Positions 10,901 to 27,684 of a DNA stretch of 64,000 nucleotides are shown here, in pieces. Made by a program: the position numbers and the translations under genes. The stretch's first letter is position 1. The number at the start of each line of letters is the position of its first letter. The DNA comes from Roseomonas sp. (GTDB taxonomy: Bacteria; Pseudomonadota; Alphaproteobacteria; Acetobacterales; Acetobacteraceae): NCBI GenBank assembly GCA_020249775.1, contig JADCFA010000019.1, positions 27,463-91,462 on the forward strand, read 5' to 3'. The notes below the pieces were generated by a model. It did not search any database. It was not told the origin of the DNA and saw only the letters and a list, made by a program, of their open reading frames with translations.

Positions 10901-12513
10901 GCCTCCTTCGGCCCGGCCTCCGCCCCCAGCGTCGCACCGGCCGCAGCAAAGGCACGAATCCAGCCAGGCAACCGCCCCAGCAGCCGATCCACATCGGCCG
11001 GCCCGATTTCGGCCATCACGCCGCGCCAGGGGCTTTGCGCGCCGCCATCCGCTGCATAGCCGGCCAGCAACTTGATCGCATCGCGCCGCGCTTCAATCGC
11101 GCCCGCATCCCAATCCGTGACATTCGCGGCAAAATCCGGCGCGGCCACACCGCGTTGGCGCAAGCCAACCAGCGCGCCAATCACCTGATGCAGCGCTAGA
11201 CCCGAAGCACCGACCGTTGCGCGCATTGCCGCCGCATGGCGATTGATCCGCCCGCGCAAAGACCCAAGCCGGCGCACCACCGCATCACGATCAGGCTTGG
11301 GCGGCATGGGCAGGGATAGTGTCGCGCGCAATTCATCCAGCACCGCACGCTTTGATTGCTTTTCCGAATGTAATTCCAGGCAGGCGGCACCAAGGCCGAT
11401 ACTCTCCAGCCGGCGCTTCACTACCTCCAGCGCGGCGAGCTTTTCGGCCACGAACAAAACACTCCGCCCATCCAGCACGGCCTGGGCGATGATATTGCTG
11501 ATGGTCTGGCTTTTGCCGGTGCCGGGCGGGCCTTGAATAACAACATGCCCGCCGCGCCGGACCGCTTCCGCCGCAAGCGCCTGGCTGCCATCCACATCCA
11601 TCACATGATCAAGCCGCTCCACCGGGATTTCCGCATCCACGTCGGCGTCATCGGCAAAGACAGGCGGGATGGAAAGTGCCTCACCGCCCACCAGCGCGCG
11701 CACCATGGGGTGATCGGCAAGGCCCGGATTTTCCTCAGGCCCCAGGTCACGCCACATCAGAAATTTAGCGAAGGAGAATAGCCCAATCGCCAGCGCATCC
11801 GCATCCACCCGCCAAGTGGCGCGTTCCGTCACCAGCGCCGCGACGGCTTCCGCCCAGGCGGTGGGCGTATAGGCCTCAGCGTCGAAATCCGGTAGTGCGG
11901 TCTTGAAATTCACCTTCAGCATTTCGCGGAGCGATAGATTCTCCGCAATATCGCCCACCGTCCCGCGCAGCTTGAAATTCTGCGATACGCCCTCGCGCTC
12001 CAGCGCAACAGGCAGCAGCGCAAGCGGTGCGCGCCGTTCGGTCTCGGGTGTTGCGGGATCGCGCCAGATCAGCGCGCCAAGCGCCAGGTAAAGTGTCGGC
12101 ACGCCGGTTTCTTCGCGGGCCGTGCGCGCATCCTGCATGATGTCGCGCAGCCGGCGCACCAGATCAGCGGGTGGCAATTGCACGCGCAGCCTATCATCGC
12201 GCTGATAGTCTTCCCGCGCCGCATCGGCTTTGGCGGTGCCAATACCTTCCGGCTTTACCTTCGCGCTACGCGCGCGGCGCGGTTTGCCGGGGCTGGCTTC
12301 CTGAGGCACCGCTTCCGGCGCGGTGGCTGAGGCTTCAAAGCCAAAGGCGCGGCCTGCTTGCAGTGCGCCAAGCACGAAATCCGCATCCTCATCATCCAGA
12401 ATAATAACACCGCGCGATGCGCCCGGCTTTGGCAGTGAAAGCAGCCGGTTGCGCGTGGAAAGATCAAGCAAGCCCCTGCGGGCTTCTTCCAGCGCAGTGC
12501 GAAGATCCGTCAT
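7999..12513 (-). CDS. giant Upf1-like SF1 helicase with four parts: DUF4011-like N-terminus, AAA_11/AAA_12 core, restriction-endonuclease-like segment and DUF3320-like C-terminus
   Basis: - Walker A GPPGTGKS lies at 11509..11532.
- Helicase motifs LLVIDEASQV, VVVVGDDKQMPP, LRWHYRSRHESL, VQGDERD and LNVLITRAKK are present.
- The N-terminus LLDLSTRNRLLSLPK is typical of DUF4011.
- A nuclease-like segment YVLGIEADAG..RDRERGRASALEAMGWKLARAW lies at about 8608..8799.
- The start was chosen at the ATG at 12513 (MTDLRT); the ORF track start is 12537. Confidence 0.85.
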   Translation of the reverse strand: MTDLRTALEEARRGLLDLSTRNRLLSLPKPGASRGVIILDDEDADFVLGALQAGRAFGFEASATAPEAVPQEASPGKPRRARSAKVKPEGIGTAKADAAREDYQRDDRLRVQLPPADLVRRLRDIMQDARTAREETGVPTLYLALGALIWRDPATPETERRAPLALLPVALEREGVSQNFKLRGTVGDIAENLSLREMLKVNFKTALPDFDAEAYTPTAWAEAVAALVTERATWRVDADALAIGLFSFAKFLMWRDLGPEENPGLADHPMVRALVGGEALSIPPVFADDADVDAEIPVERLDHVMDVDGSQALAAEAVRRGGHVVIQGPPGTGKSQTISNIIAQAVLDGRSVLFVAEKLAALEVVKRRLESIGLGAACLELHSEKQSKRAVLDELRATLSLPMPPKPDRDAVVRRLGSLRGRINRHAAAMRATVGASGLALHQVIGALVGLRQRGVAAPDFAANVTDWDAGAIEARRDAIKLLAGYAADGGAQSPWRGVMAEIGPADVDRLLGRLPGWIRAFAAAGATLGAEAGPKEAEAALALNPALAAAPAHDATALKHEAWAGDLAPLAALVQALGDLQKAKADPQLLPGALDVVGITEARATLAEAGGVFGFLSGARRDAKALAARVARDAENPLPALDAALAGQAAREALRLGDALGRAAFGTLWQHEASDPAPLTALLAWRKTYGAAALTALAHGAKPADTAPLEKALAAFQEMQQATKFDGRIAFGMDEPSFTALAARLGDWAAAPEALDAWLGWRRAGASASGLEPLLERLADGRVAPEAAEDVFSFALYEGLLRAAMAEHPELAAFDGAAADRLVEDFREADRARITLTRAEAAYAHAQRVKEVRDGAQGMAVLRGEMEKKRGHLPVRELLLRASQAVQKAKPIFMMSPLSVAQFLSPPHGLRPGLSFDLLVIDEASQVEPVDALGAIARCRQVVVVGDDKQMPPTRFFQRMTGEEAEEAAEDASDVVAARDVESILGLCNARGLPSAMLRWHYRSRHESLIATSNAEFYDNRLFILPSPRARSAALGLSLRRVEGRFDTGGTGTNAEEARAVAEAVITHARETPGDTLGVAAFSIRQRDAILNAVEAARRDNADTEAFFSAHPDEPFFVKNLENVQGDERDSIMISVGYGRGADGKLAMRFGPLSADGGERRLNVLITRAKKRCIVFSSIGADDIDLARASGRGVATLKSFLAFAAAGEAPRTAAAKTQAAPIAAAIGKAIEAAGKEAVPRVGMAGLFLDVAARDSGNYVLGIEADAGDWAALRSARDRERGRASALEAMGWKLARAWSLSWYGRPEAEAARIAALLGAAPAAASVETAAPAPETGLVEPYREAAPDVPKSTAIADVPFATLAGILAEIITVESPITTESLAERVRLLWGLEALPTPARDALRQALALARQLHGVKEEQGFLLADGAAIVPRDRRAAGAHLRRAAAVSPREIAAAAEKLLALRPVTTEAELAAGIHRLLGLDANAQTAIAARLAGLIGAGVVKL

Positions 12514-12517
12514 GCGG

Positions 12518-12679
12518 CTATTTTTTCCGCAAGGCAAAGGTGATCAGCAGCACGCAGCCAACCAGCGCCAGAATGGCCAGCATGCCCTGGACAACCTCAA
12601 AATTCGGCGAGTCAGGATGGATGAAAATGGACGCAGCCGCGGCGCCCATCATCAGCAGGGTTTGCAGTATCCATTCCAT
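12518..12679 (-). CDS. hypothetical 53-aa two-TM membrane peptide, below the 60-aa cut-off of the ORF track
   Basis: My own translation is MEWILQTLLMMGAAAASIFIHPDSPNFEVVQGMLAILALVGCVLLITFALRKK. A G-rich Shine-Dalgarno (GAGGGG) lies about 7 nt upstream of the ATG at 12679. The TAG at 12518..12520 lies 4 nt before the helicase ATG. Confidence 0.35.
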   Translation of the reverse strand: MEWILQTLLMMGAAAASIFIHPDSPNFEVVQGMLAILALVGCVLLITFALRKK

Positions 12680-12766
12680 CAAAGCGCCCCTCACCCCTCG
12701 GCCAGGGCGGATGCCATGGCCGTGCGGTAGTCTTGCATATCCGCCACGCCAGTCGAGGGGTGATTT

Positions 12767-13291
12767 TCACGGAACCGAAGGCGGGTTGGGCAGGATGCGA
12801 TTTTCCAATACCTCGATACGCGACAGCGATGTCTTGAGCAGTGAAATCAGCTCCGCCACCTGCTGTTCGCGCAGCAGGTCCAGCTTTTCATGCAGCAGGC
12901 TGATTTCGGCCTCGGCGCGGATATTCACCTGGTAATCGGCAATGGACCGGATGCGGTCTATATCCGCCTGGCGGTTCTGGCTCATCATAATGATGGGCGC
13001 CGTATAGGCCGCCTGGAAGGATAGCATCAGGTTCAGCAGAATGAAGGGATAGGGGTCCCAGGCATTTCCGCCCGAGGCGATATTGGCGATCAGCCAGGCC
13101 AGCAATAGCCCCGATTGGATCAGGATAAAGCGCCAGGACCCGACCGTTTCCGCGACAAGGTCGGAAAGCCTTTCGCCGAGCGTCAGTGGCGGCGCCGGCC
13201 CTTCACCGCGCCGCCTTTCCCGGGCGCGCGACAGGGCTGTGCGCAAATGGCTATGGCGGCGCTGATGATGAGGTTCCGGATGCTCGGCCAT
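12767..13291 (-). CDS. DUF1003-family membrane protein
   Basis: It contains WRFILIQSGLLLAWLIANI..NAWDPYPFILLNLMLSFQAAYTAPIIMMSQNRQ and a C-terminal coiled coil. The ATG at 13291 is preferred over the TTG at 13309. Confidence 0.8.
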   Translation of the reverse strand: MAEHPEPHHQRRHSHLRTALSRARERRRGEGPAPPLTLGERLSDLVAETVGSWRFILIQSGLLLAWLIANIASGGNAWDPYPFILLNLMLSFQAAYTAPIIMMSQNRQADIDRIRSIADYQVNIRAEAEISLLHEKLDLLREQQVAELISLLKTSLSRIEVLENRILPNPPSVP

Positions 13292-13354
13292 GCAGAATTC
13301 CCCCTGCAAAGCGCGAAGTCTGCACCATTCATCCCGGCCGGAACATGATAAATA

Positions 13355-14782
13355 TCAACTCCGCCCGTAAGTATCCTCAAAGCGCACGATATCATCTTCG
13401 CCGAGGTAGGAGCCGGATTGCACCTCAATCAGGGTCAGCGGGATCTTGCCCGGGTTTTCCATGCGATGGATGCAGCCCAGCGGCAGATAGACGCTTTCAT
13501 TCTCCCGCAGCATGATGTCTTCCCCGTCACGGCGCACAATGGCAGTGCCGGAAACCACCACCCAATGCTCGGCGCGATGAAAATGCTTTTGCAGGGAAAG
13601 CTTGGCGCCGGGGCGAACCTCGATTTTCTTGACCTGGAAACGCTCACCCATGATCAGGCCTTCATAATGGCCCCAGGGGCGATAGGCGCGGCGATGTTCG
13701 GTCGCTTCCTTGGCACCACGCGCCTTCAGCCTATCCACCAGCTTTTTCACATCCTGCGCATGGTCGCGATGCATGGCCAGCACGGCATCATCTGTCACCA
13801 CCACCACGGCGTCTTGCAGCCCGATCACGCCGGTCAGGATGGTTTCGCTCCGCACATAGCAATTCTTGGCATCTACCAATTCAACGGGGCCGAGCGTCGC
13901 ATTGCCCGCCGCATCCTTCGGCTGAATTTCCCACAATGCCGCCCAGGAACCGATATCCGACCAGCCAATGGCAGCCGGCACCACGGCGGCTTTTTGCGTG
14001 CGTTCCATCACCGCGTAATCAATGCTGATGGATGGTGTCGCGGAGAAAGCCGCGGCTTCCAGGCGGATGAAATCCCCATCGCGCGCGGCACCGGCAACCG
14101 CAGCGCGGACACTCTTCAGCACCTCTGGCGCTTGGGTTTCAAGCTCGGCCAACATGGTCGCGGCGGTCGCGACAAACATGCCGGAATTCCATAAATGCCG
14201 CCCGGTTTTGAGAAACTCCGCCGCGCGGGCCGCATCGGGCTTTTCCACAAAGCGCGCGATGCGCTTCACGCCATCACTGCCCGGCAAGGCATCACCGGCT
14301 TCGATATAGCCATAGCCGGTTTCGGGCGCGGTGGGCTGCATGCCGAAGGTAACAATCGCCCCCGCTTTCGCTGCAGCGGCGGCCTTGGCCAGCGCGGCTT
14401 GCAGCGCCGCCACATCACCAATCGCTGCATCGGCGGCCATGAACCACAGCACCGCGCCGGGTGCGGTTTCCTCGGCAAGCAATGCCGCGGCGGCAATGGC
14501 GGGCGCGCTATTGCGGCCCACCGGTTCCAGAACGATGGCCGCACCCTTGTCGCGCAATTGTTCGGCCACCAGGAAGCGATGCGCTTCATTGCAAACAACC
14601 ATGGGCGGCAGGAAGCCCGCGCCTGAGCCCCGCGCGGCGGTTTCCGCCAGCATGGTCTTGTCAGACGCCAAGGGCCAGAACTGCTTAGGGTAGCTTTCGC
14701 GCGACAGCGGCCATAGCCGCGTGCCGGTGCCGCCGGAAAGGATCACGGGCAGGATTGGGGGGGAAGAGGCGTTCATGGGCAA
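13355..14782 (-). CDS. manC: bifunctional mannose-1-phosphate guanylyltransferase / mannose-6-phosphate isomerase
   Basis: It has the N-terminal nucleotidyltransferase motif ILSGGTGTRLWPLSR. The C-terminal cupin reads HRAEHWVVVSGTA..GSYLGEDDIVRFEDTYGR. At 475 aa it is the typical size. Confidence 0.9.
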   Translation of the reverse strand: MPMNASSPPILPVILSGGTGTRLWPLSRESYPKQFWPLASDKTMLAETAARGSGAGFLPPMVVCNEAHRFLVAEQLRDKGAAIVLEPVGRNSAPAIAAAALLAEETAPGAVLWFMAADAAIGDVAALQAALAKAAAAAKAGAIVTFGMQPTAPETGYGYIEAGDALPGSDGVKRIARFVEKPDAARAAEFLKTGRHLWNSGMFVATAATMLAELETQAPEVLKSVRAAVAGAARDGDFIRLEAAAFSATPSISIDYAVMERTQKAAVVPAAIGWSDIGSWAALWEIQPKDAAGNATLGPVELVDAKNCYVRSETILTGVIGLQDAVVVVTDDAVLAMHRDHAQDVKKLVDRLKARGAKEATEHRRAYRPWGHYEGLIMGERFQVKKIEVRPGAKLSLQKHFHRAEHWVVVSGTAIVRRDGEDIMLRENESVYLPLGCIHRMENPGKIPLTLIEVQSGSYLGEDDIVRFEDTYGRS

Positions 14783-14911
14783 TCATTACTCCGCATTCGG
14801 CGGCGCTTAGGGGCAAATCGGGGCAAAGCCAAGGCAGGGGCTTAGGGCGTTTCCCTGGGCGGGCTTCCGGTATAGAGCTTCTCGCCCGATTCAGCCTGAA
14901 AGTCGCCTGCC

Positions 14912-15349
14912 TTGGATAACCCTATTGCCCCCGCCATTCCGGAGGGCTTTGTGCCCCGCCCCGCCGGCGGGCCGTTTCTGGAACCCATTGGCCCCATCAT
15001 GATCCGGCGGGATCACGGGCCGCTTGCCTTTGGGCTGCGGGTCGAAAAGCGCCATTGCAACAGCAAGGACATGGCGCATGGCGGCATGTTGGCGACTTTT
15101 GCTGACCTTGCCTTGGGCATCGGCGGCTTCACCCTGGCCGGGGTGACGGGCTTCTTCACCACCATCAGCCTGAATTCGGATTATCTGGCGCCGGCCAAGC
15201 TTGGCACTTGGCCGCAATGTGAACCGGTGCTGCTGCGCCGCACCCGCACGCTGGTTTTCGCGCAAGGCGTCTGCATGGCGGATGGCAAGCCTGTGCTGCG
15301 CGCCAGCGGGGTTTTCGCCCTGCCGCGGGAGCCCGCGGCAGGCGCGTGA
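14912..15349 (+). CDS. PaaI-family hotdog-fold thioesterase
   Basis: It contains NSKDMAHGGMLATFADLALG and is about 145 aa. The start is a TTG, so the start coordinate is uncertain. Confidence 0.7.
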   Translation: MDNPIAPAIPEGFVPRPAGGPFLEPIGPIMIRRDHGPLAFGLRVEKRHCNSKDMAHGGMLATFADLALGIGGFTLAGVTGFFTTISLNSDYLAPAKLGTWPQCEPVLLRRTRTLVFAQGVCMADGKPVLRASGVFALPREPAAGA

Positions 15350-15358
15350 TCTACCCGT

Positions 15359-16144
15359 TCATACCACCGGGCTTTTGCCGCCATCCACATTGATGGCGGT
15401 GCCGCTGATGAAGCCGCCCTGTTCGCTGGCGAGCAGCAGCGCCATGGCGGCGAATTCCTCGGCCTTGCCGATGCGGCCAAGCGGCACGGCCTTGCCCTGT
15501 TCGGCCTTCCAATCTTCCCAGGTGATGTTGCGCTTTTCGGCGGCGTGGCGACGCACCCATTGGTCGCTTTCGATAATGCCGACCAGCATGGCATTCACCA
15601 GCACATTATGGGGCGCGAATTCATTCGCCATGGCCTTGGTGAGCGCCATGCCCGCCGCGCGAGACACTGAGGTAGGCGTGGACCCGCCCGGCGGTGCCTT
15701 GGCGCCGATATTGAGCACATTGATGATGCGGCCCCATTTGCGATCCCGCATGGCGGGCAACGCAAGCCGGGAAAGCCGGATGGCCGCAAACAGCTTCAGG
15801 TCCAGATCATCCTGCCAAAGCGCGTCTGACACCTCCAGGAAGCCGCCGCGCTGCGATGTGCCGGCATTATTGATCAGGATATCCACCTGGCCGAGGCCCT
15901 TCACCGCCGCGGCATAAGCGGCTTCGCAGCCTTCTGCCGTGCGGATATCGGCGGCAATGGCGGCGACCTTGGCGTTGGGCGCAGCGGCGCGGATTTCCGC
16001 TTCCGCCTTGGCAAGGCTTTCCGCCCCGCGCGCGACAATGGCGACATGCCCGCCCGATTCAGCGAACATCTTCGCCATGGCAAGGCCGAGGCCCTTGGAC
16101 CCACCGGTAATAAGCGCCGCGCGCCCGTTCAAGGTGATATTCAT
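15359..16144 (-). CDS. SDR-family oxidoreductase
   Basis: It has the Rossmann motif ALITGGSKGLGLA and NNAG. The start was chosen at the ATG at 16144 (MNITLNG). Confidence 0.88.
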   Translation of the reverse strand: MNITLNGRAALITGGSKGLGLAMAKMFAESGGHVAIVARGAESLAKAEAEIRAAAPNAKVAAIAADIRTAEGCEAAYAAAVKGLGQVDILINNAGTSQRGGFLEVSDALWQDDLDLKLFAAIRLSRLALPAMRDRKWGRIINVLNIGAKAPPGGSTPTSVSRAAGMALTKAMANEFAPHNVLVNAMLVGIIESDQWVRRHAAEKRNITWEDWKAEQGKAVPLGRIGKAEEFAAMALLLASEQGGFISGTAINVDGGKSPVV

Positions 16145-16211
16145 GGATCGCTCCCCCACATGATGGGGGCCATCCTGCCGGAAGTGGGGCGGGACGCAAG
16201 CGGTGGGGGGA

Positions 16212-16286
16212 TGGAGCGGGCGGGGGGAATCGAACCCCCGACATTCAGCTTGGGAAGCTGACGTTCTACCTCTGAACTACGCCCGC
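16212..16286 (-). tRNA. tRNA-Gly (anticodon CCC)
   Basis: I folded the cloverleaf by hand on the reverse complement.
- Acceptor stem: GCGGGCG/CGCCCGC.
- D stem: GTTC/GAAC.
- Anticodon stem TCAGC/GCTGA with loop TTCCCAA.
- T stem GGGGG/CCCCC with loop TTCGATT.
- The CCA tail is encoded. Confidence 0.93.
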
Positions 16287-16529
16287 GCCGCGGTGGGGAT
16301 ATACCCGCCAGGTTAGGGGTTGGGCAAGCTCCTCGGCATTGCGGGCCGGAATGGTGTTGTCAATTACGTCGGGGCACTCACGGTCCTCGCTTGTCTGGCA
16401 GGGGCGACGATTAAGGGAAAGCCTAGTTGAGCTAAATCTGCCCTTCCTGGGCTGCAACCGGCCCGTCCCTCACGGAACAAACCGATTTGCTCAAGATTGG
16501 ATTTCATCCACCCGTGATCTGGGCTAAAA

Positions 16530-17603
16530 ATGGTTAATGCCGCAATTCTCTTATTTATGCTCGTCGGTTGTGCGGTGAGCACCGCTGCCGGGTTAAAGGG
16601 ACAGCCCCCGTTCAAAATACTCTCTCTAAGCGGAGGGGGCTATCTTGGGCTGTATTCGGCTTCCGTGCTCGCGGCACTAGAAGAACGCATTGGAGAACCT
16701 ATTCACTCGCGCTTCGACCTCATTGCTGGAACGTCAGTCGGTGGCATCATCGCGTTAGGCTTGGCTGCTGGGGTCAGAGCCGCAGACATACGCGATACTT
16801 TTCGTTCGAAGGGCGTAGAAATCTTTTCTGGTCGGGGGGCGCCGAAGGGCCATTTCTCTGCCTTGTGGGACATATGCCGCTCCGTCCTGCGGCCGAAATA
16901 TAGCAATGCAGCACTGCGCCGAGTTATCGTCAGCTTGGTAGGTGAAGAGCGGCGCCTCGGCGATTTGGACCGCCCCGTCTTGATCCCCGCCGTGAACCTA
17001 ACAAAGGGAGGGCCGCAAGTCTTTAAAACGCCGCATCACCCCCACTTTCAGCGAGACAAACTACTCAAAGTTGTTGATGTCGCGCTCGCCACCTCAGCCG
17101 CTCCAACTTTTTTTCCTATTGTGGAGATCGAGTCATCTTTATACGCGGATGGTGGATTATTCGCCAATTCGCCGGACTTAATGGCAGTGCATGAAGCCGA
17201 ACATTTTTTCAAAATTCCCAGAGAAAGAATCCAGTTACTTAGTATCGGTACTACGACATCTTCCTTCTCGTTTTCTCACAGCACATCTCGCGAATTAGGC
17301 TTATTTGGGTGGGCGAAGAATCAAAGGCTTATCCAAGCGATGCTGGCATCTCAGCAGCAGATGGTACGCCACATGCTCGAGCATTCGCTGGAGGATAGAT
17401 ACCTTCGTATAGATACCTTCCAGTCCGCAGAGCAGCAGAAGGATTTAGTTTTGGATGTGGCGAACGAAGCGGCGCAGAAGACCTTGATCGGTTTAGCTGA
17501 TGCTAGTTCCCAGGGGGCCATCAACCAGAGGCTTGTCATGGCGATGCTTTCGCATCGAGCGGATACCACTTTGTTCATTGAACCCCGTATGGACCTGAGG
17601 TGA
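16530..17603 (+). CDS. patatin-like phospholipase, the CapV/CapE-type CBASS effector candidate
   Basis: - Oxyanion hole: GGGYLG.
- Nucleophile elbow: GTSVG, with the Ser codon at 16734..16736.
- Catalytic Asp: YADGGL.
- At 357 aa it is about the size of CapV.
- Its stop overlaps the next ORF.
- The start is ambiguous: ATG 16530, ATG 16557 or GTG 16575. Confidence 0.85.
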   Translation: MVNAAILLFMLVGCAVSTAAGLKGQPPFKILSLSGGGYLGLYSASVLAALEERIGEPIHSRFDLIAGTSVGGIIALGLAAGVRAADIRDTFRSKGVEIFSGRGAPKGHFSALWDICRSVLRPKYSNAALRRVIVSLVGEERRLGDLDRPVLIPAVNLTKGGPQVFKTPHHPHFQRDKLLKVVDVALATSAAPTFFPIVEIESSLYADGGLFANSPDLMAVHEAEHFFKIPRERIQLLSIGTTTSSFSFSHSTSRELGLFGWAKNQRLIQAMLASQQQMVRHMLEHSLEDRYLRIDTFQSAEQQKDLVLDVANEAAQKTLIGLADASSQGAINQRLVMAMLSHRADTTLFIEPRMDLR

Positions 17604-17608
17604 TTTGC

Positions 17609-17944
17609 ATGGGCTTAGCGTCAAGCTTTTTCTTTAGCTCGAATGATAGCGAGAAGCAGACATTATATCGGCGCGTTACCCCGACAGAGGCGCAATTCGA
17701 TGCACAAACAACACGTTGGAATGAGCTTGCCGAGTATCTGCTCTCGGACCTTAAATCAACCACCGGATATCCAACCAGAAGTTGGCTTCAGGGCAGCTAT
17801 AAATTTGGGACACAAGTCCGCCCGCCTTCCAAGTTTGGAGAATTCGACATTGACCTTGGGATATACTTTGAATGGGAGGGCAACCCGGATGCGGCAGGCT
17901 ATGACCCATCCGAATTGCAGGGACTAGTTCAAGACTGCCTCTAA
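17609..17944 (+). CDS. N-terminal fragment of the CD-NTase (GS and DxD motifs)
   Basis: This is the alternative description of the previous entry, as it would be called by a gene finder. It terminates at the TAA at 17942..17944. Confidence 0.55.
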   Translation: MGLASSFFFSSNDSEKQTLYRRVTPTEAQFDAQTTRWNELAEYLLSDLKSTTGYPTRSWLQGSYKFGTQVRPPSKFGEFDIDLGIYFEWEGNPDAAGYDPSELQGLVQDCL

Positions 17945-17980
17945 AGATACGCAAACGGTAGAGCGGAAATCAAGAGTGTT

Positions 17981-19006
17981 GTGCGACCACCTAAGAAACG
18001 CTGCTGCCGTATTCACTACAAAGATAACTTTCATATCGATGTTCCCTGTTATCATCTCGATCCGACGCGTGACCATCGGAGTTTGGCCACATTAGACGGC
18101 TGGGAGAAGAGCGATCCGAAGGCACTCTATGTCTGGTTCCGCGATAGCTTCGAAGAAGCCGACCGGGCAAAAGTTAGGCGACAAATCAAATACTTAAAGG
18201 CATGGGCGGCGCTGAAATGGAAAACTGATGCGGGTCGGCCCTCTTCGGTCCTGCTAACCGTTCTTGGAGCCGAAGCTGCAAAGAGGGTTCCTCTTTCTCA
18301 GCCAGATGATGATTTACTAATTTCAATATTGAACGATATCCACCGCCGTATGGTTGCCAATCCAGTTATTTCGAATCCTACGAACAAGACCGAGAACCTA
18401 AACCGACTTGAACACGCGCAAAATCTAGAGTTCGTGGATCGGCTTTCCAAGTTTAAGGACGTCGCGGACCGGGCTCGTGAGGCTGCGGAAGAGAGCACGG
18501 CAGCAGTCGTTTGGGCCGAGGCGTTCGAACATTTTTTTCCGATGCCTGAGCTCGGAGAAAGCTCAATTTCCCTGCAAGCAATGAATAAGTCGGGCGCACT
18601 GGTCCCGATTACACTACCGGATATCCACGTCACCGCGGTCAACAAGGAAAATCCGCACCTTCGGTATGCGGGCACTAATTGCATTGGCCCCATCCCGAGA
18701 AACTGCACCCTTACCTTCACTATACCGGAAGCCTGGCGGCTTCCTCATGGCGCCACCGTGGAGTGGGTGGTACGTAACGGTGAGGGAGAAGCGGAGGCGG
18801 AAAATGACCTCGGTCACTCAAGTGGGATAGGTACAACTAAAACGGAGACATCTGCTTATAATGGGACGCATTTCATGGACGTTATCTTCAGAGTGAGTGG
18901 CGACATCATCGGTGCACGACGAGTTACCGTGACTGTTCGAGATGTGCCAATCCGGAAACGCAATCCTCCACAGCCGCAATATGTAAGGCTACGCGGGCGG
19001 CGATGA
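17981..19006 (+). CDS. C-terminal fragment of the CD-NTase (third catalytic Asp, helical lobe, AGS-C-like extension)
   Basis: This is the alternative description. Its GTG start has only a weak upstream purine run. The in-frame sense codons at 17945..17980 argue that it is a fragment and not an independent gene. Confidence 0.5.
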   Translation: MRPPKKRCCRIHYKDNFHIDVPCYHLDPTRDHRSLATLDGWEKSDPKALYVWFRDSFEEADRAKVRRQIKYLKAWAALKWKTDAGRPSSVLLTVLGAEAAKRVPLSQPDDDLLISILNDIHRRMVANPVISNPTNKTENLNRLEHAQNLEFVDRLSKFKDVADRAREAAEESTAAVVWAEAFEHFFPMPELGESSISLQAMNKSGALVPITLPDIHVTAVNKENPHLRYAGTNCIGPIPRNCTLTFTIPEAWRLPHGATVEWVVRNGEGEAEAENDLGHSSGIGTTKTETSAYNGTHFMDVIFRVSGDIIGARRVTVTVRDVPIRKRNPPQPQYVRLRGRR

Positions 19007-19051
19007 GCCTATTTCGACTGTCTCTCTTTGATCGCCTGTGTAGTCATAATC

Positions 19052-19513
19052 TCACCCCTCAGCCGCCTTATCCCGCGCCGCCGTCGCCAGCGCATCCGCG
19101 CGTTCATTCATGGGGTCGCCGGCATGGCCGCGCACCCAATGCCATTCAATCTCATGCGGCTTGGCCGCGGCCAGAATGGCCTGCCACAGATCAAGGTTCT
19201 TCACCGGCTCCTTCGCCGCATTGCGCCAATTGGCGCGCACCCAGCCATGGATCCAGCGGCTGATGCCGTTCCGCAGATATTCGCTATCGGTATGCAACGC
19301 CACGCGACAGGGTTTTTTCAGCGCCTCAAGCGCCTTGAGTGCCGCGGTCAATTCCATGCGGTTATTGGTGGTCTCGGCCTCACCGCCTGAGAGCTCTCGT
19401 TCATGCTCGCCAAAGCGCAGAATGGCGGCCCAGCCGCCGGGGCCGGGGTTGGGTTTGCAGCCGCCATCGGTCCAAATCTCGACCAAGGGGCGCGGGTCAG
19501 CGCTGCCAGTCAC
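19052..19513 (-). CDS. rnhA: ribonuclease HI
   Basis: It contains [27 protein letters not shown] and [14 protein letters not shown], and is 153 aa long. Confidence 0.95.
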
Positions 19514-20490
19514 AGCCCAAAGGCCGCAAGCGTTTCGGCGCCGCTGAAGAACCGTAGCTTGCGCAAATATTCCACCGGGTCCTTCCGCGTCACCAGCGCG
19601 CCTTCGGGCGTGTGGGTCCAGTCATAAAGCCGCGTCAGCAGAAAGCGCAGCGCCGCACCGCGGCAGAGAACGGGCAGCGCGGCCAATTCAGCCTCATTCA
19701 ATGGGCGCATGGCGCGATAGGCGCCCAGCATGGCGCGCGCGCGGGTGACGTTGAAGGAATAATCCGCCTCAAAGCACCAGGCATTCAGGCAGACGGCGAT
19801 GTCATAGGCGAAAAGATCCGTGCAGGCGAAATAGAAATCAATCACGCCGGAAACACGCGGCTGGCCATCGGCGCCCGGCAGGAAAAACGCATTATCGGGG
19901 AAAAGATCGGCGTGGATTTGCCCAACCGGCAGGCCGCCTTCGGCCGGCCAGGCGGAAAGAATGCCCGCAAGAGCCGCATCAAGTTCCGCAATCAGGCCTG
20001 GCTGCACTTCATCTCCCCGCGCGCGGCAGCCATCCAGCAAGGGTGCCCAGCCCTTGGGGCCAAGCGCATTGGGCCGGCGCATCGCAAACCCCGCCCCGGC
20101 CAAATGCATTTCTGCCAAGGCCTTGCCGAGCGGCGCGCAATGTTCCGCCCGCACGCGGCGCGGCCAAACTCCCGGCAGAAAGGTGACAATCGCTGCCGGC
20201 CGCCCCGCCAATTCCCGCAGCGCCGCGCCATCGCGCCCATGCACCGGCGTGGGGCAGGCCATGCCGCGCGCGGCCAGATGTTCCATCAGGCCAAGGAAAT
20301 AGGGCAATTCCGCCGGGTCCACACGCTTTTCATACAGCGTCAGGATGAAATCGCCCGCTTCGGTTTTCAGCGCGTAGTTGGAATTCTCCACACCCTCCGC
20401 GATGCCACGAAACGCCAGCAATTCACCCAGCGCATAATCGGCCAGGAAGGCACGGAGCGCCTCATCCGAAACTTCGGTATAGACAGCCAT
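19510..20490 (-). CDS. thrB: homoserine kinase, protein-kinase-fold type
   Basis: It has the N-terminus [37 protein letters not shown] and the HADLFPDN catalytic loop. It overlaps rnhA. Confidence 0.88.
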
Positions 20491-21461
20491 TACTCGGCGG
20501 CGAGCCCGCGCGGCAGGCGGAAGGTGATTTGTTCTACGGCCACCACCACTTCTTCGATTTCCAGCGCATAGGCTTCACGAAGCCGGGCAAGTACTTCTTC
20601 CACCAGCACTTCGGGCGCGCTGGCGCCGGCGGTCACCCCCACGGTCTTGCAGCCCTGCACAAGGGAAAGATCAAGATCAGCGCCTCGCTGCACCATGACC
20701 GCGCGGCGTGCGCCGCTGCGCTCCGCCACTTCGCGCAGGCGTTGGCTGTTTGATGAATTAGGCGCACCCACCACCACCACCAGATCGGACCGCGCAGCAA
20801 TCGCCTTCACCGCCGCCTGACGATTGGTGGTGGCGTAGCAGATATCTTCCTTGGCGGGGCCACGAATATCGGGGAAGCGCTGTTGCAAGATGCCGATGAT
20901 TTCCGCCGTGTCATCCACTGAAAGCGTGGTTTGCGTGGTGAAGGCAAGCATTGCGCCCTCGGGCGGCATCACGCGCCGCGCATCATCCGCATCCTGCACC
21001 AGGGTCACGGCACCTTCGGGCAATTGGCCCATGGTGCCGATCACTTCCGGATGGCCGGCATGGCCAATCAGGAAAAGATGGCGGCCATGTTCATGATGGC
21101 GTTCGGCTTCGCGATGCACCTTGCTCACCAGCGGGCAGGTGGCATCAAGCGCGAACATCATGCGTTTGGCGGCCTCGGCCGGGACAGATTTCGGCACGCC
21201 ATGGGCGGAAAACACCACGGGCTGGCCATCATTCGGGATTTCACTCAGTTCCTCGACGAATATCGCGCCCTGCTTTTCCAGGCTTTCCACCACGAAGCGG
21301 TTATGGACAATCTCATGCCGCACATAGACCGGCGCGCCGTGGCGTTTCAGCGCTTCCTCCACAATCTTGATGGCGCGGTCCACGCCGGCGCAAAAGCCGC
21401 GCGGGCCGGCGAGCAGAAGGTGAAGGGGCGGCTTGGCAGAGGCCATGGGCGCGGGGTCCAT
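20490..21461 (-). CDS. ispH: 4-hydroxy-3-methylbut-2-enyl diphosphate reductase
   Basis: It contains [21 protein letters not shown] and SAHGV. The alternative start is the ATG at 21446. Confidence 0.93.
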
Positions 21462-21547
21462 CCAAGGGGGCCGGCCACGGGTTGCGGCGCGACGCGAAGA
21501 ATGGTCAGACTAGCCCGCAGCCCGTTCGGGTCAAAGGGGGTTCCAGC

Positions 21548-22069
21548 ATGCGGCGCTTCGGGGTTTTGGTTCTGGCGGGGCTGGTCGCGGCTTGTGGTTC
21601 GTCCAGCAAGGAGCAGGTGCTGGCACCTTGCCCGAGGGTGACCATCCTGGCCGATGGCGCGGATATCACCCGCTACCGGCCCGGCGCGCCGCCCGATTTG
21701 GCCGCGATGCTGGTGGATGGCCGGATCGCGGGGGTGGGTGTCACTTGCGATTACGTCCGGGGCGGCGGGGTGGAGGTAAAGGTCGCCGCCATCATGGATG
21801 TTGAACGCGGCCCCGCCACGCGCGGCAATCGGGCAGAGTTCCCCTGGTTCCTGGCGGTGACCAGCGGCGATGACAGCCAATTGGTCGAACGCAAGGAAGC
21901 GCTGCTGACCGTGAATTTTGAAGGCAATCAGACCCGCACGCGGGTGACCACGGCGCCGGAGAGCATCATCTTCCCGGCGGGGCGCAACCCGGCATTCTAC
22001 CGCGTGCGGATTTCCTTCGCCCTGAACGCCGAGGAGCTGGACCGCAACCGCCGCCGCGGGCCCCGTTAA
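21548..22069 (+). CDS. hypothetical lipoprotein
   Basis: MRRFGVLVLAGLVAACGSS is a signal peptide with a lipobox (LVAAC). Its function is unknown. Confidence 0.65.
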   Translation: MRRFGVLVLAGLVAACGSSSKEQVLAPCPRVTILADGADITRYRPGAPPDLAAMLVDGRIAGVGVTCDYVRGGGVEVKVAAIMDVERGPATRGNRAEFPWFLAVTSGDDSQLVERKEALLTVNFEGNQTRTRVTTAPESIIFPAGRNPAFYRVRISFALNAEELDRNRRRGPR

Positions 22070-22102
22070 CCCGTCTTTTTGCGTCCGATCGGGCCGGGGC
22101 AT

Positions 22103-22181
22103 CTTGTCTCGCCCGGCACGGTTACATACATGCCCTGCATGGCCGCGACCCCGTTGGGCGCGGCTCAATTCAACCCCATCC
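22103..22181 (+). promoter_or_regulatory. candidate RpoH (sigma-32) heat-shock promoter region upstream of dnaK
   Basis: There are two candidates. One is CTTG (22103) followed by 18 nt and CATACAT. The other is gTTG (22153) followed by 17 nt and CCCCATCC (22174). Neither has been verified. Confidence 0.3.
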
Positions 22182-22267
22182 GCGGTGGCGCTTCGCCATC
22201 GTATAGCACAGGGGGTCGCCGTGGTGCCATATCGGGCCGCCGCGATCCGCCGCAGAGGAGACTTCGG

Positions 22268-24190
22268 ATGAGTAAGGTCATTGGCATAGACCTCGGCACC
22301 ACCAATTCCTGCGTCGCGATTCTTGAAGGCAAGGATGTGCGCGTGATTGAAAACGCCGAAGGTGCGCGCACCACGCCTTCCATGATCGCGTTTGCGAAGA
22401 ATGGCGAAAGGCTGGTCGGGCAATCGGCGAAGCGCCAGGCGGTCACCAATCCCACGGGCACGCTTTACGCGGTGAAGCGCCTGATTGGGCGGCGCTTTGA
22501 TGACCCGATGGTGCAGAAGGATATCGGGCTTGCCCCCTTCAAGATCACCAAGGCGCCCAATGGCGACGCCTGGGTTGAGGTGGATGGCAAGACCTATGCG
22601 CCGCAGCAGATCAGCGCCATGGTGTTGACCAAGATGAAGGAAACCGCCGAGGCGCATCTCGGTGAGAAAGTTTCCCAGGCGGTCATTACCGTTCCGGCCT
22701 ATTTCAATGACGCCCAGCGCCAGGCGACCAAGGAAGCCGGCACGGTCGCCGGGCTTGAAGTGCTGCGCATCATCAATGAACCAACCGCCGCCGCGCTCGC
22801 CTATGGCATGGACCAGAAGAAGGGCGGCACAATCGCGGTCTATGACCTTGGTGGCGGCACCTTCGACGTTTCCATCCTGGAAATCGGCGATGGCGTGTTT
22901 GAAGTGAAATCCACCAATGGTGACACCTTCCTAGGTGGTGAGGATTTCGACCAGCGCATCATTGACTATCTGGCCGATGAATTCCGCAAGGAACAGGGCA
23001 TTGACCTGCGCGGCGACAAGCTTGCGCTGCAACGCCTGAAGGAAGCGGCAGAAAAGGCAAAGATCGAGCTTTCCTCTTCCAAGGAAACCGAAGTCAACCT
23101 GCCCTTCATCACCGCCGATGCCTCTGGCCCCAAGCATCTGGTGATGAAAGTCACGCGCTCAAAGCTGGAAGCCTTGGTGGATGATCTGATCAGCCGCACC
23201 TTGGAACCCTGCCGCCAGGCGCTGAAGGATGCCGGCCTTGCCGCCAATGAAGTGGATGAGGTGATCCTTGTCGGCGGCATGACACGCATGCCGAAGGTTG
23301 TGGAAGCGGTTCGCCAATTCTTCGGCAAGGAACCCGCGCGCAACGTCAACCCCGATGAGGTTGTCGCCATTGGCGCGGCCATTCAGGGCGGCGTGCTGAA
23401 GGGCGATGTCAAGGATGTGCTGCTGCTGGATGTGACGCCGCTCAGCCTTGGGATTGAAACCTTGGGTGGCGTCTTCACGCGGTTGATTGATCGCAACACG
23501 ACGATCCCGACGAAAAAAAGCCAGACTTTCTCCACTGCCGATGATAATCAAACCGCGGTCACCATCAAGGTCTATCAGGGCGAACGTGAAATGGCTGCCG
23601 ATAACAAGCAGCTTGGCACTTTCGACCTGACGGGCATTCCCCCTGCGCCGCGTGGCGTGCCGCAGGTGGAAGTGACCTTTGACATTGACGCGAACGGCAT
23701 TGTCAGCGTCAGCGCGAAGGACAAGGCAACCGGCAAGGAACAGCAAATCCGCATCCAGGCGAAGTCGGGTCTGTCTGACGCCGATATCGAACGCATGGTG
23801 AAGGATGCTGAAGCCAATGCGGAAGCCGACCGCAAGCGGCGCGAAGCGGTGGAAGCGCGCAACCAGCTTGATGCGCTGGTGCATTCCACCGACAGGACGC
23901 TGAAGGAAAGCGGGGAAAAGGTGCCGCCGGCTGAAAAGGTGGAGGTGGAATCGGCGCTCGCCGCTGCCCGCACCGCCATGGAAGGCCAGGACGCCGATGC
24001 AATCCGTGAGGCTTCTGAAAAGCTTTCCCAGGCCGCGATGAAAATGGGTGAGGCGCTTTACAAGGCCGAACAGGCCGCGCCGAAGCCCGAAGAACCAGCG
24101 GCCGGTGGCAGCGCGGGTGGTGCTTCCAAGGACAAGGTAGTGGATGCCGAGTTTGAGGAAGTGGACCCGAACAAGAAGAAGCCTTCCTGA
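22268..24190 (+). CDS. dnaK: molecular chaperone DnaK (Hsp70)
   Basis: It has the N-terminus [17 protein letters not shown] and the motifs [10 protein letters not shown] and [11 protein letters not shown]. The ATG at 22268 was chosen inside the longer ORF 22079..24190. Confidence 0.98.
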
Positions 24191-24227
24191 TCCCTTTCGG
24201 GGTGGTAGCTCCTTTGACCAAGTTTTT

Positions 24228-24253
24228 CCCCTGGTGCCTGCTGGCGCCAGGGG
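24228..24253 (+). promoter_or_regulatory. strong intercistronic stem-loop between dnaK and dnaJ
   Basis: An 11-bp stem joins cccctggtgcc and ggcgccagggg (one G-U pair) around the loop tgct. It is not followed by a clear T-tract. Confidence 0.4.
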
Positions 24254-24283
24254 GCGTCTTGTGTCGGAAACGGTAGCCCGATC

Positions 24284-25438
24284 ATGGCAAAACGCGATTA
24301 TTACGAGGTTCTCGGCGTCGCGCGCGATGCGGGCGAGGATGACCTCAAGAAATCCTATCGTAAGCTCGCGATGCAATGGCACCCTGATCGCAATCAGGGC
24401 AATACGGAAGCGGAAGCCAAATTCAAGGAATTGAATGAGGCTTACGATGTGCTGAAGGATGCCGAAAAGCGCGCGGCCTATGACCGCTTCGGCCATGCTG
24501 CCTTTGAACAGGGCGGGCCTGGTGGCGGTGGCGGCTTCGGCGGCGGCAGCCCCTTCGGTGGCGGCGGGTTCGAGGATATTTTTGAGGAAATGTTCGGTCG
24601 CTTCGGCGGCGGCGGGCGCGGGCAGCGCGCGGCTTCCGGGCGCGGTTCTGATTTGCGCACGCAGGTGGAGGTTTCCTTGCAAGAAGCCTTTGCCGGTGCG
24701 AAAAAAACCATCCGCTTCGCCACCAGCGTTTCCTGCGAAGCCTGTAAGGGCGTTGGTGCGGAAGGCGGTGCGGCATCTGGCGTGCAGAATTGCGGCACCT
24801 GCCAAGGCAGCGGCAAGGTTCGCGCGCAGCAGGGGTTTTTCCTGGTCGAGCGCACCTGCCCCACCTGTAGCGGCCAGGGCCGAACCATCAAGAACCCTTG
24901 CAAGATTTGCCGTGGTGCGGGGCGCGTGCAGCGCGAACGCAGCCTGAATGTCTCGGTCCCTGCCGGCGTTGATGATGGCACGCGCATTCGCCTGAGCGGC
25001 GAGGGTGAGGCCGGGCAGCGCGGCGCACCGGCGGGCGATCTTTACGTGGATATCGCAGTGCGGCCGCATCCGATTTTCCAGCGCGATGGCGCGAATATTC
25101 TGGTGCGCGTGCCGCTGCGTATGACTCAAGCGGCACTTGGCGGCCATGTGGAAGTGCCGAGCATTGATGGCGGGCGTTCAAAAGTGACGATCCCTGCCGG
25201 CACGCAAACCGGCGATCAATTCCGTCTGCGTGGCAAGGGGTTTTCCGTGCTGCGGTCCGCGGCGCGCGGCGATATGTATGTGCAGGTTGTGGTGGAAACG
25301 CCGCAGAACCTCTCACCCAAGCAGCGCGAATTGCTCGAACAATTCGAAGCCGAGGCAGAGAAGGGCGGGCGCACCAGCCCGGAAAGCGAAGGCTTCTTCG
25401 CCAAGGTCAAGGAATTCTGGGACGGGTTGGGGCGATAA
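24284..25438 (+). CDS. dnaJ: molecular chaperone DnaJ
   Basis: It has the J-domain [11 protein letters not shown], a G/F-rich region and four CxxCxGxG zinc-finger repeats. Confidence 0.97.
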
Positions 25439-25444
25439 TTCTGC

Positions 25445-27582: not shown

Positions 27583-27606
27583 AGGCGAGGGCCTTTGGGA
27601 TGAATA

Positions 27607-27631
27607 TGAAATGTTATAATGTAACATATTT
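27607..27631. promoter_or_regulatory. Zur-box-like AT-rich palindrome upstream of znuA
   Basis: The sequence tgaaATGTTAtaatgTAACATattt has ATGTTA-N5-TAACAT inverted arms. It stands out as AT-rich in a GC-rich intergenic region 25 nt upstream of the znuA start. Confidence 0.5.
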
Positions 27632-27684
27632 ACTGCCTGTCAAGCACCATGGCCCTACCCGGCGCAACAGTTTAGGCTACCCGC

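What the first reader, a model, noticed from the sequence alone, without database searches (positions are those of the whole stretch)
16287..19051. Low-GC two-gene islet between tRNA-Gly(CCC) and rnhA: patatin phospholipase plus CD-NTase/SMODS cyclase (minimal type I CBASS-like module)
**Seen in the sequence**
- The ORF at 16530..17603 carries a complete patatin active site: GGGYLG, GTSVG and ADGG.
- The next reading frame (17609..19006) carries the pol-beta/CD-NTase triad layout: QGSYKFGT, EFDIDLG and HIDVP.
- The two genes are coupled. The patatin TGA lies at 17601..17603, GAGG lies 8 nt before the ATG at 17609, and a GTGA overlap is also possible.
- My hand-counted 60-nt lines inside the islet are about 40% G+C, against about 68% in the flanking rnhA.

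**From established knowledge**
- A phospholipase followed by a cyclase is the capV-dncV arrangement of CBASS.

**Inferred from what is absent**
- I saw no Cap2/Cap3, HORMA/Trip13 or SAVED genes, which would make this a type I module.
- It is the only clearly foreign DNA in 64 kb and the best candidate for an immune system here.
- The particular combination is not one I can name a characterised example of: a patatin effector with a cyclase that carries a C-terminal extension, in this lineage.
Basis: partly seen in the sequence, partly recalled or inferred. Interest (0 to 1): 0.8.

Follow-up and report, generated by a model that had tools for sequence, protein, structure and literature searches.

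The report
Broken two-gene CBASS phage-defence islet
This is an ordinary two-gene CBASS anti-phage module (a cGAMP-type signal synthase plus a membrane-destroying phospholipase) inserted between rnhA and a tRNA gene of a freshwater Roseomonas-like bacterium, and here the synthase gene carries a premature stop codon, so the system is probably switched off.

Summary
A 2,719-bp insert (window 16332..19050) lies exactly between the rnhA stop codon and the tRNA-Gly(CCC) promoter.

It encodes CapV (NCBIfam CBASS_lipase, 388 bits) and a CD-NTase fused to an AGS-C domain (PADLOC cyclase model, 543 bits, end to end). The closest solved fold to the intact allele is BfCdnB (TM 0.87). There is no room for Cap2/Cap3 or HORMA genes, so this is type I CBASS.

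The architecture is well catalogued:
- About 40% of type I operons carry AGS-C fusions.
- capV sits directly upstream of the cyclase in 7 of 7 distant relatives checked.

In this genome the cyclase is cut at codon 112 by TAA (GAA>TAA), before the third catalytic Asp. The same lesion appears in seven independent assemblies and in NCBI MAG records, so it is real. Sibling lineages carry intact alleles at the same site. No further decay is detectable, so the knockout is recent.

The islet is accessory. Four close relatives have a clean empty site, and 76 more distant species lack it. capV and cyclase alleles reassort between lineages.

Verdict: a known kind of system, probably inactive here, of low interest.

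The parts
16212..16286 (-). tRNA-Gly(CCC), the left anchor of the insertion site
   Evidence: ARAGORN. Rfam tRNA at 73.7 bits.
16287..16331 (-). Conserved upstream region of the tRNA gene. It holds a putative promoter, TTGCCC at 16322-16327 and TATATC at 16298-16303 with an 18-nt spacer. It is not part of the insert.
   Evidence: It aligns with the empty-site relatives L008, L009, L010 and L015 up to position 16331. The promoter assignment is my inference from conservation; the consensus scan did not call it.
16332..19050 (.). The inserted islet, 2,719 bp. It is absent from four close relatives, where the rnhA stop codon abuts the tRNA promoter. Only a GAG microhomology marks the junctions.
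   Evidence: BLASTN and MAFFT junctions. G+C 0.522 against 0.616, z = -5.3. No terminal direct or inverted repeats.
16332..16574 (+). Non-coding leader of the operon, presumably holding its promoter. The 62-aa ORF at 16339..16527 is not conserved in frame in L088.
   Evidence: No Rfam match and no consensus promoter. It is 94-95% identical to L092, about 84% to L088 and unalignable in L094.
16575..17603 (+). capV, a patatin-like CBASS phospholipase effector, intact. It is 342 aa from the GTG at 16575; alternative starts are the ATGs at 16530 (357 aa) and 16557 (348 aa). Motifs present: GGGYLG, GTSVG, ADGG.
   Evidence: Pfam Patatin 98 bits, NCBIfam CBASS_lipase 388 bits (cut-off 200), PADLOC phospholipase effector 395 bits. 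Solved CapV structures match at E = 3e-60.
17609..19006 (+). CD-NTase (CdnB-like) fused to AGS-C, 465 codons, interrupted by a stop at codon 112. Catalytic residues are G62-S63, D80-x-D82 and D144.
   Evidence: AF2 model of the intact allele P0001 has pLDDT 88.7. Top Foldseek match is BfCdnB 7ljo, TM 0.87.
17942..17944 (+). In-frame TAA. Intact alleles have Glu or Asp here, so the change is a single GAA>TAA substitution. It falls in helix 100-115, upstream of the third catalytic Asp.
   Evidence: The identical lesion is in assemblies L001-L007 and in L096/L097.
17981..19006 (+). The residual 341-aa ORF (GTG start), covering the CD-NTase C-lobe and AGS-C. NCBI MAGs annotate it as 'hypothetical protein' of 341 or 307 aa.
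18671..18937 (+). AGS-C (Ig-like beta-sandwich) domain, residues 355-443
   Evidence: Pfam PF18134 at 44.2 bits (cut-off 26.7). The model shows beta-strands across residues 340-443.
19052..19513 (-). rnhA (RNase H), the right anchor. It converges on the cyclase gene with a 45-nt gap.
   Evidence: Pfam RNase_H on the called gene. It is 94-97% identical in the empty-site relatives.

Best explanation
This is a type I CBASS operon: capV followed by a clade-B-like CD-NTase fused to an Ig-like AGS-C domain.

**How the intact version most likely works (inferred from characterised relatives)**
1. During phage infection the cyclase is activated. The AGS-C domain probably tunes which phages are sensed.
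2. The cyclase makes a cyclic dinucleotide, most likely 3'3'-cGAMP.
3. The nucleotide binds CapV, which forms filaments and hydrolyses membrane phospholipids.
4. The infected cell dies before phage are released.

**State in this genome**
A single GAA>TAA change at cyclase codon 112 ends translation before the third catalytic Asp, the C-lobe and AGS-C. No signal can be made, CapV stays latent, and the system is a recent loss-of-function allele.

**How the islet is maintained**
It is an accessory cassette at a recombination hot spot between rnhA and tRNA-Gly in one freshwater Roseomonas-like clade. It carries no mobility genes. It appears to spread and reshuffle by homologous recombination through its conserved flanks and within the operon.

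**Shown versus inferred**
- Shown: family membership, architecture, the stop codon, presence/absence at the site, and the mosaic of alleles.
- Inferred: the nucleotide product, the trigger, the abortive-infection outcome, and loss of function.
For: **Families**
- Both proteins pass curated cut-offs.
- The catalytic motifs are intact and invariant across 50 homologues.
- Fold: the AF2 model has pLDDT 88.7. Its best PDB matches are BfCdnB (E = 1.7e-20, TM 0.87), then DwCdnB and DncV.

**Product (inference)**
- The cyclase passes the NCBIfam 'CBASS cGAMP synthase' equivalog cut-off and CapV passes the 'cGAMP-activated phospholipase' equivalog cut-off.
- BfCdnB makes mainly 3'3'-cGAMP and uses an acidic 'lid 3' residue (PMC10442399). 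By my residue count in the alignment, that residue aligns with the invariant E262 here.
- The CapV mechanism is described in PMC12480259.

**Type I**
- The 2,719-bp insert holds only the two genes, and its flanks are housekeeping genes.

**The stop codon is real**
- The same 111-aa plus 341-aa split appears in seven Logan assemblies from two accession series and in NCBI MAG records.
- TAA closes 5 of 37 long frames in the window, so the genetic code is standard.

**The knockout is recent**
- On the window branch there are 7 synonymous and 7 non-synonymous changes (the nonsense included), against 9 and 6 on the intact sister branch.
- Polarised amino-acid changes are 6 against 7.
- Carriers are nearly clonal, 99.99-100% identical over 16-21 kb.

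**The islet is accessory**
- Clean empty sites occur in L008, L009, L010 and L015.
- No capV or cyclase lies near thrB-rnhA in any of 80 species representatives.
- Filled and empty lineages interleave on the flank tree.

**Recombination**
- capV of the window is 97.5% identical to L092 but about 84% to L098 and L099.
- The cyclase is 97-98% identical to L098 and L099 but 92% to L092.
Against: - No experiment or expression data is available, so loss of function is inferred from the position of the stop codon alone.
- capV is fully intact and the cyclase shows no second lesion. That also fits continued selection, for example low-level readthrough or a two-piece enzyme.
- Only 64 kb of the genome was visible, so a second CD-NTase that could feed CapV in trans cannot be excluded.
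- Clade B assignment rests on the nearest solved structures at 25% identity, not on a phylogeny with the reference CD-NTase set.
- The predicted product could be wrong, because CD-NTase products vary within clades.
- The flank tree uses only 1.4 kb next to a recombining site.
Confidence: 0.85

Rival explanations
1. The system still works despite the stop codon. Either occasional readthrough of TAA occurs, or the 111-aa N-fragment (GS and DxD motifs) and the 341-aa C-fragment (third Asp, C-lobe, AGS-C) assemble into a two-piece cyclase.
For: - capV is intact and no further lesions have accumulated in the cyclase.
- A GTG at 17981 with an AAGAG 4 nt upstream could restart translation.
- The allele is fixed in a widely sampled population.
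Against: - The carrier population is almost clonal, so the absence of decay is explained equally well by youth.
- Residues 113-124, including strand 121-124 of the core sheet, would be missing from both fragments.
- No recoding signal is evident.
- All 120 best homologues listed are single chains, nearly all of about 456-485 aa. The only shorter ones are a 429-aa entry and one truncated 280-aa entry.
Confidence: 0.07
2. The stop codon is a sequencing or assembly error and the cyclase is intact in the organism.
For: It is a single-base difference from intact alleles that are 96-98% identical.
Against: - The same TAA is found in seven independent assemblies from different sequencing runs and in several NCBI MAGs.
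- It is a substitution, not a homopolymer indel.
Confidence: 0.02
3. The cyclase is dead, but CapV is retained as a receiver for a cyclic nucleotide made by another CD-NTase elsewhere in the genome, or as a housekeeping lipase.
For: capV is intact and under strong purifying selection between lineages (dN/dS 0.04-0.10).
Against: - No second CD-NTase is present in the 64-kb window.
- The low dN/dS reflects history before the knockout.
- capV is tightly coupled to this cyclase family in 7 of 7 relatives.
Confidence: 0.05
4. The pair is a conserved core function of the lineage and not an accessory defence cassette.
For: It sits at the same site in at least three lineages whose flanks differ by 8-10%.
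Against: - Four equally close lineages have clean empty sites.
- It is absent from 76 more distant species representatives.
- G+C is 9 points lower and GC3 about 20 points lower than in the host genes.
- Relatives sit beside restriction-modification genes, conjugative-element genes and on viral contigs.
Confidence: 0.01

Closest known systems
Type I CBASS with a CD-NTase-AGS-C fusion (for example the clade B06 CdnB-Cap15 operons tested by Richmond-Buccola et al., bioRxiv 10.1101/2023.05.21.541620)
   Same: - It is a two-gene operon with no Cap2/Cap3 or HORMA/TRIP13 genes.
- The cyclase carries the C-terminal Ig-like AGS-C domain.
- The nearest solved folds are CdnB enzymes.
   Different: - The effector here is CapV, not Cap15.
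- The cyclase is about 25% identical to BfCdnB, which itself lacks AGS-C in the crystallised chain.
- The host is a freshwater alphaproteobacterium.
- The cyclase carries a nonsense mutation.
Vibrio cholerae / E. coli capV-dncV (the CBASS prototype)
   Same: - The gene order is capV then cyclase, tightly coupled.
- The effector is a patatin phospholipase predicted to respond to cGAMP.
- Both proteins pass the NCBIfam equivalogs built around this system.
   Different: - The prototype is type II, with Cap2 and Cap3, and its clade A cyclase has no AGS-C.
- DncV is only about 18-20% identical in structural alignment.
Acinetobacter baumannii CapV and related solved CapV structures (9kh6, 9kh7, 9wn0, 8zr9; PMC12480259)
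   Same: - It has the same single-domain patatin fold and the same catalytic Ser-Asp dyad motifs.
- Sequence matches reach E = 3e-60 over residues 27-333.
   Different: - The characterised AbCapV comes from a type II operon.
- Ligand specificity was not tested for this protein.
Core-gene-flanked defence hot spots that carry interchangeable defence cassettes
   Same: - There is a presence/absence polymorphism at a fixed site between conserved genes.
- No mobility genes are present.
- Alleles are mosaic, and neighbouring variable cargo is seen in relatives.
   Different: - The site lies between a gene's stop codon and a tRNA promoter.
- Only CBASS or nothing was seen in this exact slot.
- The comparison rests on my general knowledge of such hot spots, not on a cited study.

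Membership tests
CBASS (cyclic-oligonucleotide-based anti-phage signalling system) | A CD-NTase/SMODS cyclase with the GS ... [DE]xD ... D catalytic signature | tested here: met
   Pfam DncV-like_NTFase 70 bits, NCBIfam cGAS 192 bits (cut-off 150), PADLOC cyclase 543 bits. G62-S63, D80, D82 and D144 are invariant in 50 homologues.
CBASS (cyclic-oligonucleotide-based anti-phage signalling system) | An adjacent effector gene of a recognised Cap class in the same operon | tested here: met
   capV ends 5 nt before the cyclase ATG. NCBIfam CBASS_lipase scores 388 bits against a cut-off of 200.
CBASS (cyclic-oligonucleotide-based anti-phage signalling system) | Both genes intact, so the system can function | tested here: not met
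   An in-frame TAA at cyclase codon 112 is reproduced in independent assemblies. Sibling alleles P0001, P0122, P0126 and P0133 are intact.
CBASS (cyclic-oligonucleotide-based anti-phage signalling system) | Protection against phage through nucleotide-triggered cell death | not testable with these tools
   This needs phage challenge and LC-MS.
CBASS type I | No ancillary genes (Cap2/Cap3, HORMA/TRIP13 or other signature genes) | tested here: met
   Empty-site comparison delimits a 2,719-bp insert that holds only capV and the cyclase. The neighbours are tRNA-Gly, rnhA, thrB, ispH and a short-chain dehydrogenase (SDR).
CD-NTase clade B (CdnB) | Phylogenetic placement within clade B of the reference CD-NTase tree | tested here: inconclusive
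   The best sequence and fold matches are BfCdnB 7ljo (E = 5e-18; TM 0.87) and DwCdnB. AGS-C fusion is near-universal in clades B and H. No tree with the reference set was built.
AGS-C domain fusion | A C-terminal Ig-like beta-sandwich of about 18 kDa that matches PF18134 | tested here: met
   PF18134 scores 44.2 bits against a cut-off of 26.7 at residues 355-443. The model shows an all-beta region over residues 340-443.
CapV (patatin-like, cyclic-dinucleotide-activated phospholipase) | Oxyanion GGGxxG, nucleophile GxSxG and catalytic DGG motifs in a single-domain protein of about 330-360 aa | tested here: met
   GGGYLG, GTSVG and ADGG are present. The alignment to solved CapV chains covers residues 27-333.
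CapV (patatin-like, cyclic-dinucleotide-activated phospholipase) | Activation by 3'3'-cGAMP | not testable with these tools
   This is inferred only from passing the equivalog cut-off and from characterised homologues.
tRNA-integrated genomic island | An integrase gene, insertion at the tRNA 3' end, and flanking direct repeats that duplicate the tRNA 3' end | tested here: not met
   There is no integrase. The insert lies upstream of the tRNA promoter. No repeats flank the insert, and the junctions share only a GAG microhomology.

The most novel reading that the evidence does not exclude
The nonsense allele is not simply dead. One possibility is that the cyclase works as a naturally split two-piece CD-NTase or through low-level TAA readthrough, which would give a damped, less autoimmune CBASS. 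The other is that the null allele is kept in the population, alongside intact alleles at the same hot spot, by balancing selection between phage pressure and the cost of abortive infection. In that case recombination within the operon would be the route back to function.
Probability: 0.07. Interest if true: 0.5.

Novelty: new member of a known kind. Interest (0 to 1): 0.15.

Why it matters
This adds little to knowledge of CBASS itself. The architecture is already covered end to end by PADLOC and NCBIfam models and is common in type I systems.

Three modest points of value remain:
- **Annotation.** Public MAG records label the cyclase fragment 'hypothetical protein' and miss the system entirely, because the gene is split.
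- **A natural matched pair.** A knockout allele and 96-98% identical intact alleles sit at one chromosomal site in related freshwater lineages sampled in lake-type metagenomes. This could be used to ask how often defence systems are lost and regained in the wild.
- **Allele reassortment.** Effector and cyclase alleles have different histories inside a two-gene operon that has no mobility genes.

Tried and rejected
- **Mobile-element ends.** I searched 16100-19300 for terminal direct or inverted repeats, a target-site duplication and an integrase. Only chance-level short repeats and a GAG microhomology turned up.
- **Structured RNA.** Rfam at a permissive threshold over 15800-19600 found only the tRNA.
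- **Promoters and terminators.** Hits were no more frequent than in shuffled sequence, and none fell in the leader or the cyclase-rnhA gap.
- **CapV lipoprotein signal.** The N-terminus 'LVGC' looks like a lipobox. I rejected it because homologues start downstream and L088 has a stop codon inside that stretch.
- **Metagenome scan for DNA of the intact allele.** It returned only 45-47% relatives. Exact-protein look-ups of cluster members supplied the DNA instead.
- **Alternative genetic code or TAA recoding.** Rejected, because TAA closes other long frames in the window.
- **Relaxed selection after the knockout.** No signal was found; the counts are too small and the carriers too clonal to say more.
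- **Origin of the rnhA-remnant contexts (L088, L099, L015).** The flanking genes were not found in any other fetched locus, so this stays unresolved.
- **ispH comparisons.** The dN/dS values for L092, L008 and L010 are artefacts of my coordinate extension across indels and were discarded.
Full report
**1. What is in the sequence**

The region holds a tRNA-Gly(CCC) at 16212..16286 on the minus strand. It also holds an ORF at 16530..17603 (+) and, 5 nt later, a frame at 17609..19006 (+). rnhA at 19052..19513 (-) converges on that frame.

So are the GAGG 8 nt before the ATG at 17609 and the GTGA at 17600-17603.

Two numerical points need correction.
- The islet has 52.2% G+C against 61.6% for the rest of the window. 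It is the lowest of 559 equally sized windows (z = -5.3). GC3 is 0.52-0.57 against 0.71-0.77 in flanking genes.
- The cyclase frame contains an in-frame TAA at 17942-17944, codon 112.

**2. What the genes are**

The first protein is a CapV.
- It passes Pfam Patatin at 98 bits.
- It passes the NCBIfam equivalog 'CBASS cGAMP-activated phospholipase' at 388 bits (cut-off 200).
- It matches a PADLOC phospholipase-effector model at 395 bits.
- It matches solved CapV structures at E = 3e-60.

The second protein, read through the stop, is a CD-NTase with an AGS-C domain.
- It matches Pfam DncV-like_NTFase at 70 bits and AGS_C at 44 bits.
- It matches NCBIfam 'CBASS cGAMP synthase' at 192 bits (cut-off 150).
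- It matches PADLOC cyclase model PDLC00824 at 543 bits over positions 1-465 of 466.

An AlphaFold2 model of the 97%-identical intact allele P0001, built on 50 homologues, has mean pLDDT 88.7. Its best PDB matches are Bacteroides fragilis CdnB (7ljo, E = 1.7e-20, target TM 0.87), then Deinococcus CdnB and DncV. Residues 340-443 form an all-beta domain, as expected for AGS-C.

The catalytic residues G62-S63, D80, D82 and D144 are invariant in the family.

**3. The insert and its site**

A scan of one genome per species with the neighbouring ThrB protein returned 80 loci. None has capV or a cyclase near thrB-rnhA.

The four closest are L008, L009, L010 and L015. They are freshwater Roseomonas-like or alphaproteobacterial MAGs, about 91% identical in DNA. 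In all four the rnhA stop codon is followed directly by the conserved tRNA-Gly upstream region.

This fixes the insert at window 16332..19050, a length of 2,719 bp. It lies between the rnhA stop and a conserved TTGCCC-18 nt-TATATC element upstream of the tRNA. I take that element to be the tRNA promoter; this is inference from conservation.

The junctions share only GAG. There is no integrase, target duplication or terminal repeat. The insert sits on the 5' side of the tRNA, so it is not a classical tRNA-integrated island.

With only two genes in the insert and housekeeping genes on both sides, the system is type I.

**4. The stop codon is real and recent**

Exact-protein look-ups found the same capV with the same split cyclase (111 aa plus 341 aa) in seven assemblies from two run series. 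All are 100% identical at the protein level.

The window from 8083 to 29006 is 100% identical to NCBI MAG contig JADCEZ010000009.1 (Roseomonas sp.). A second MAG differs by one base in 16 kb. NCBI records label the C-terminal fragment 'hypothetical protein'.

Intact alleles have Glu or Asp at codon 112, so the change is GAA>TAA. TAA ends other long frames in the window, so the genetic code is standard.

In the model the stop falls in helix 100-115. That is after the GS and DxD motifs but before D144, the C-lobe and AGS-C. A functional enzyme is therefore unlikely.

Polarising changes with outgroups gives similar counts on the two branches.
- The window branch has 7 synonymous and 7 non-synonymous substitutions, counting the nonsense.
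- The intact sister allele has 9 synonymous and 6 non-synonymous.
- Amino-acid changes are 6 against 7.

No decay is detectable, which fits a young knockout in a nearly clonal population.

**5. Distribution and history**

Intact copies occupy the same rnhA-tRNA-Gly slot in other lineages.
- L092 and L093 carry the P0122 allele, on a contig of about 1.3 Mb.
- L098 carries P0133.
- L094 and L095 carry the 84% allele in NCBI MAG GCA_020249285.1.

L010, an empty site, shares both outer flanks with L092 and L094, which are filled.

On a thrB+rnhA tree, filled and empty lineages interleave within one clade that is 7-11% divergent. Twenty outgroup loci from other genera have no tRNA near rnhA at all.

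The two genes have different histories.
- The capV of the window is 97.5% identical to L092 but about 84% to L098, L099 and L088.
- Its cyclase is 97-98% identical to L098 and L099, 92% to L092 and 86% to L088.

Cyclase and effector alleles therefore reassort by recombination inside the operon.

Synonymous divergence in the islet ranges from well below to somewhat above that of the flanks. dS is 0.06-0.50 in the islet against 0.27-0.37 in the flanks. This is what repeated exchange through the conserved flanks would produce.

**6. How it works (inferred)**

By analogy with characterised systems, the intact cyclase is activated during infection and makes a cyclic dinucleotide. CapV binds the nucleotide, forms filaments and degrades membrane phospholipids, which kills the infected cell (PMC12480259).

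3'3'-cGAMP is the likeliest signal, for two reasons.
- Both proteins pass the cGAMP-specific NCBIfam equivalogs.
- The nearest solved enzyme, BfCdnB, makes mainly 3'3'-cGAMP with an acidic 'lid 3' residue (PMC10442399). By my residue count in the alignment, that residue corresponds to the invariant E262 here.

AGS-C is an Ig-like domain of unknown mechanism that correlates with which phage families are restricted (bioRxiv 10.1101/2023.05.21.541620).

In this genome the chain is broken at the first step.

**7. Comparison with what is known**

- About 40% of type I CBASS operons encode a CD-NTase-AGS-C fusion, and clades B and H almost always do.
- CapV is the most widespread catalytic CBASS effector, present in more than 20% of operons.
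- The search returned hundreds of homologues, typically about 465 aa with the same domains.
- In 7 of 7 distant relatives (46-63% identical) with upstream sequence available, capV sits immediately before the cyclase. These relatives lie next to type I restriction-modification genes, on a conjugative element, or on IMG/VR viral contigs.

The architecture is therefore catalogued and common.

**8. Verdict**

The thing itself is a new member of a known kind, probably inactivated here. Interest is low (0.15).

The residual novel possibility is a working split or readthrough cyclase, or a null allele maintained by selection. I rate this at about 7%.

Noticed in passing
window 7999..12513 (-): A 1504-aa protein with DUF4011, an SF1 helicase (AAA_11/AAA_12) and an MTES_1575 nuclease domain. 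It matches the PADLOC defence candidate PDC-S37 end to end (1467 bits) and Hhe (646 bits). Its G+C is host-like. It lies about 4 kb from the tRNA-Gly 3' side, in a block not found next to the tRNA in any related lineage fetched.
   Followed up: partly
L088 3168-3284 and L099 2013-2095 (related loci): In two metagenome contigs the tRNA-Gly plus CBASS islet is followed by only about 40 nt of the rnhA 3' end. A PhhB-like (pterin dehydratase) gene then replaces the rest of rnhA. L088 also has a different gene, Bug/TctC-like, beyond the tRNA. The islet therefore also exists in a rearranged context that carries a scar of its rnhA neighbour.
   Followed up: partly
L015 1414-3144 (related locus, empty CBASS slot): Beyond the tRNA-Gly 3' end this relative carries a lower-GC RTX-repeat gene. 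After that comes an ORF (2788..3144) that fuses a Bug-like N-terminus to a 117-nt duplicate of the rnhA 3' end, and then a DHDPS-family gene. This is further evidence that the rnhA/tRNA-Gly junction is a rearrangement hot spot.
   Followed up: partly
window 16212..16331 compared with 20 outgroup loci (L011-L052): The rnhA-tRNA-Gly(CCC) adjacency is specific to this freshwater clade. Related genera (Falsiroseomonas, Roseomonas, Sediminicoccus, Rhodovarius and others) have no tRNA within 10 kb of rnhA. Among clade members the DNA on the tRNA 3' side differs: a short-chain dehydrogenase (SDR), 4HBT thioesterase and ManC genes in the window, Cupin and Zn-ribbon genes plus an ABC transporter in L092, L094 and L010, and other genes in L008, L015 and L088.
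   Followed up: partly
window ~25437-25447, compared with L010 3169-5051 and L092 17814-19696: Relatives carry about 1.9 kb of extra DNA here that the window lacks. In L092 it encodes CobW-family and DUF1826 genes. This is another small presence/absence difference downstream of dnaJ.
   Followed up: no
window 8083..29006: This stretch is 100% identical to NCBI MAG contig JADCEZ010000009.1 (GCA_020249765.1, Roseomonas sp.). In that MAG set capV is annotated as a 348-aa 'patatin-like phospholipase family protein' and the 307-aa cyclase fragment as 'hypothetical protein'. The CBASS system is therefore invisible in the public annotation.
   Followed up: yes
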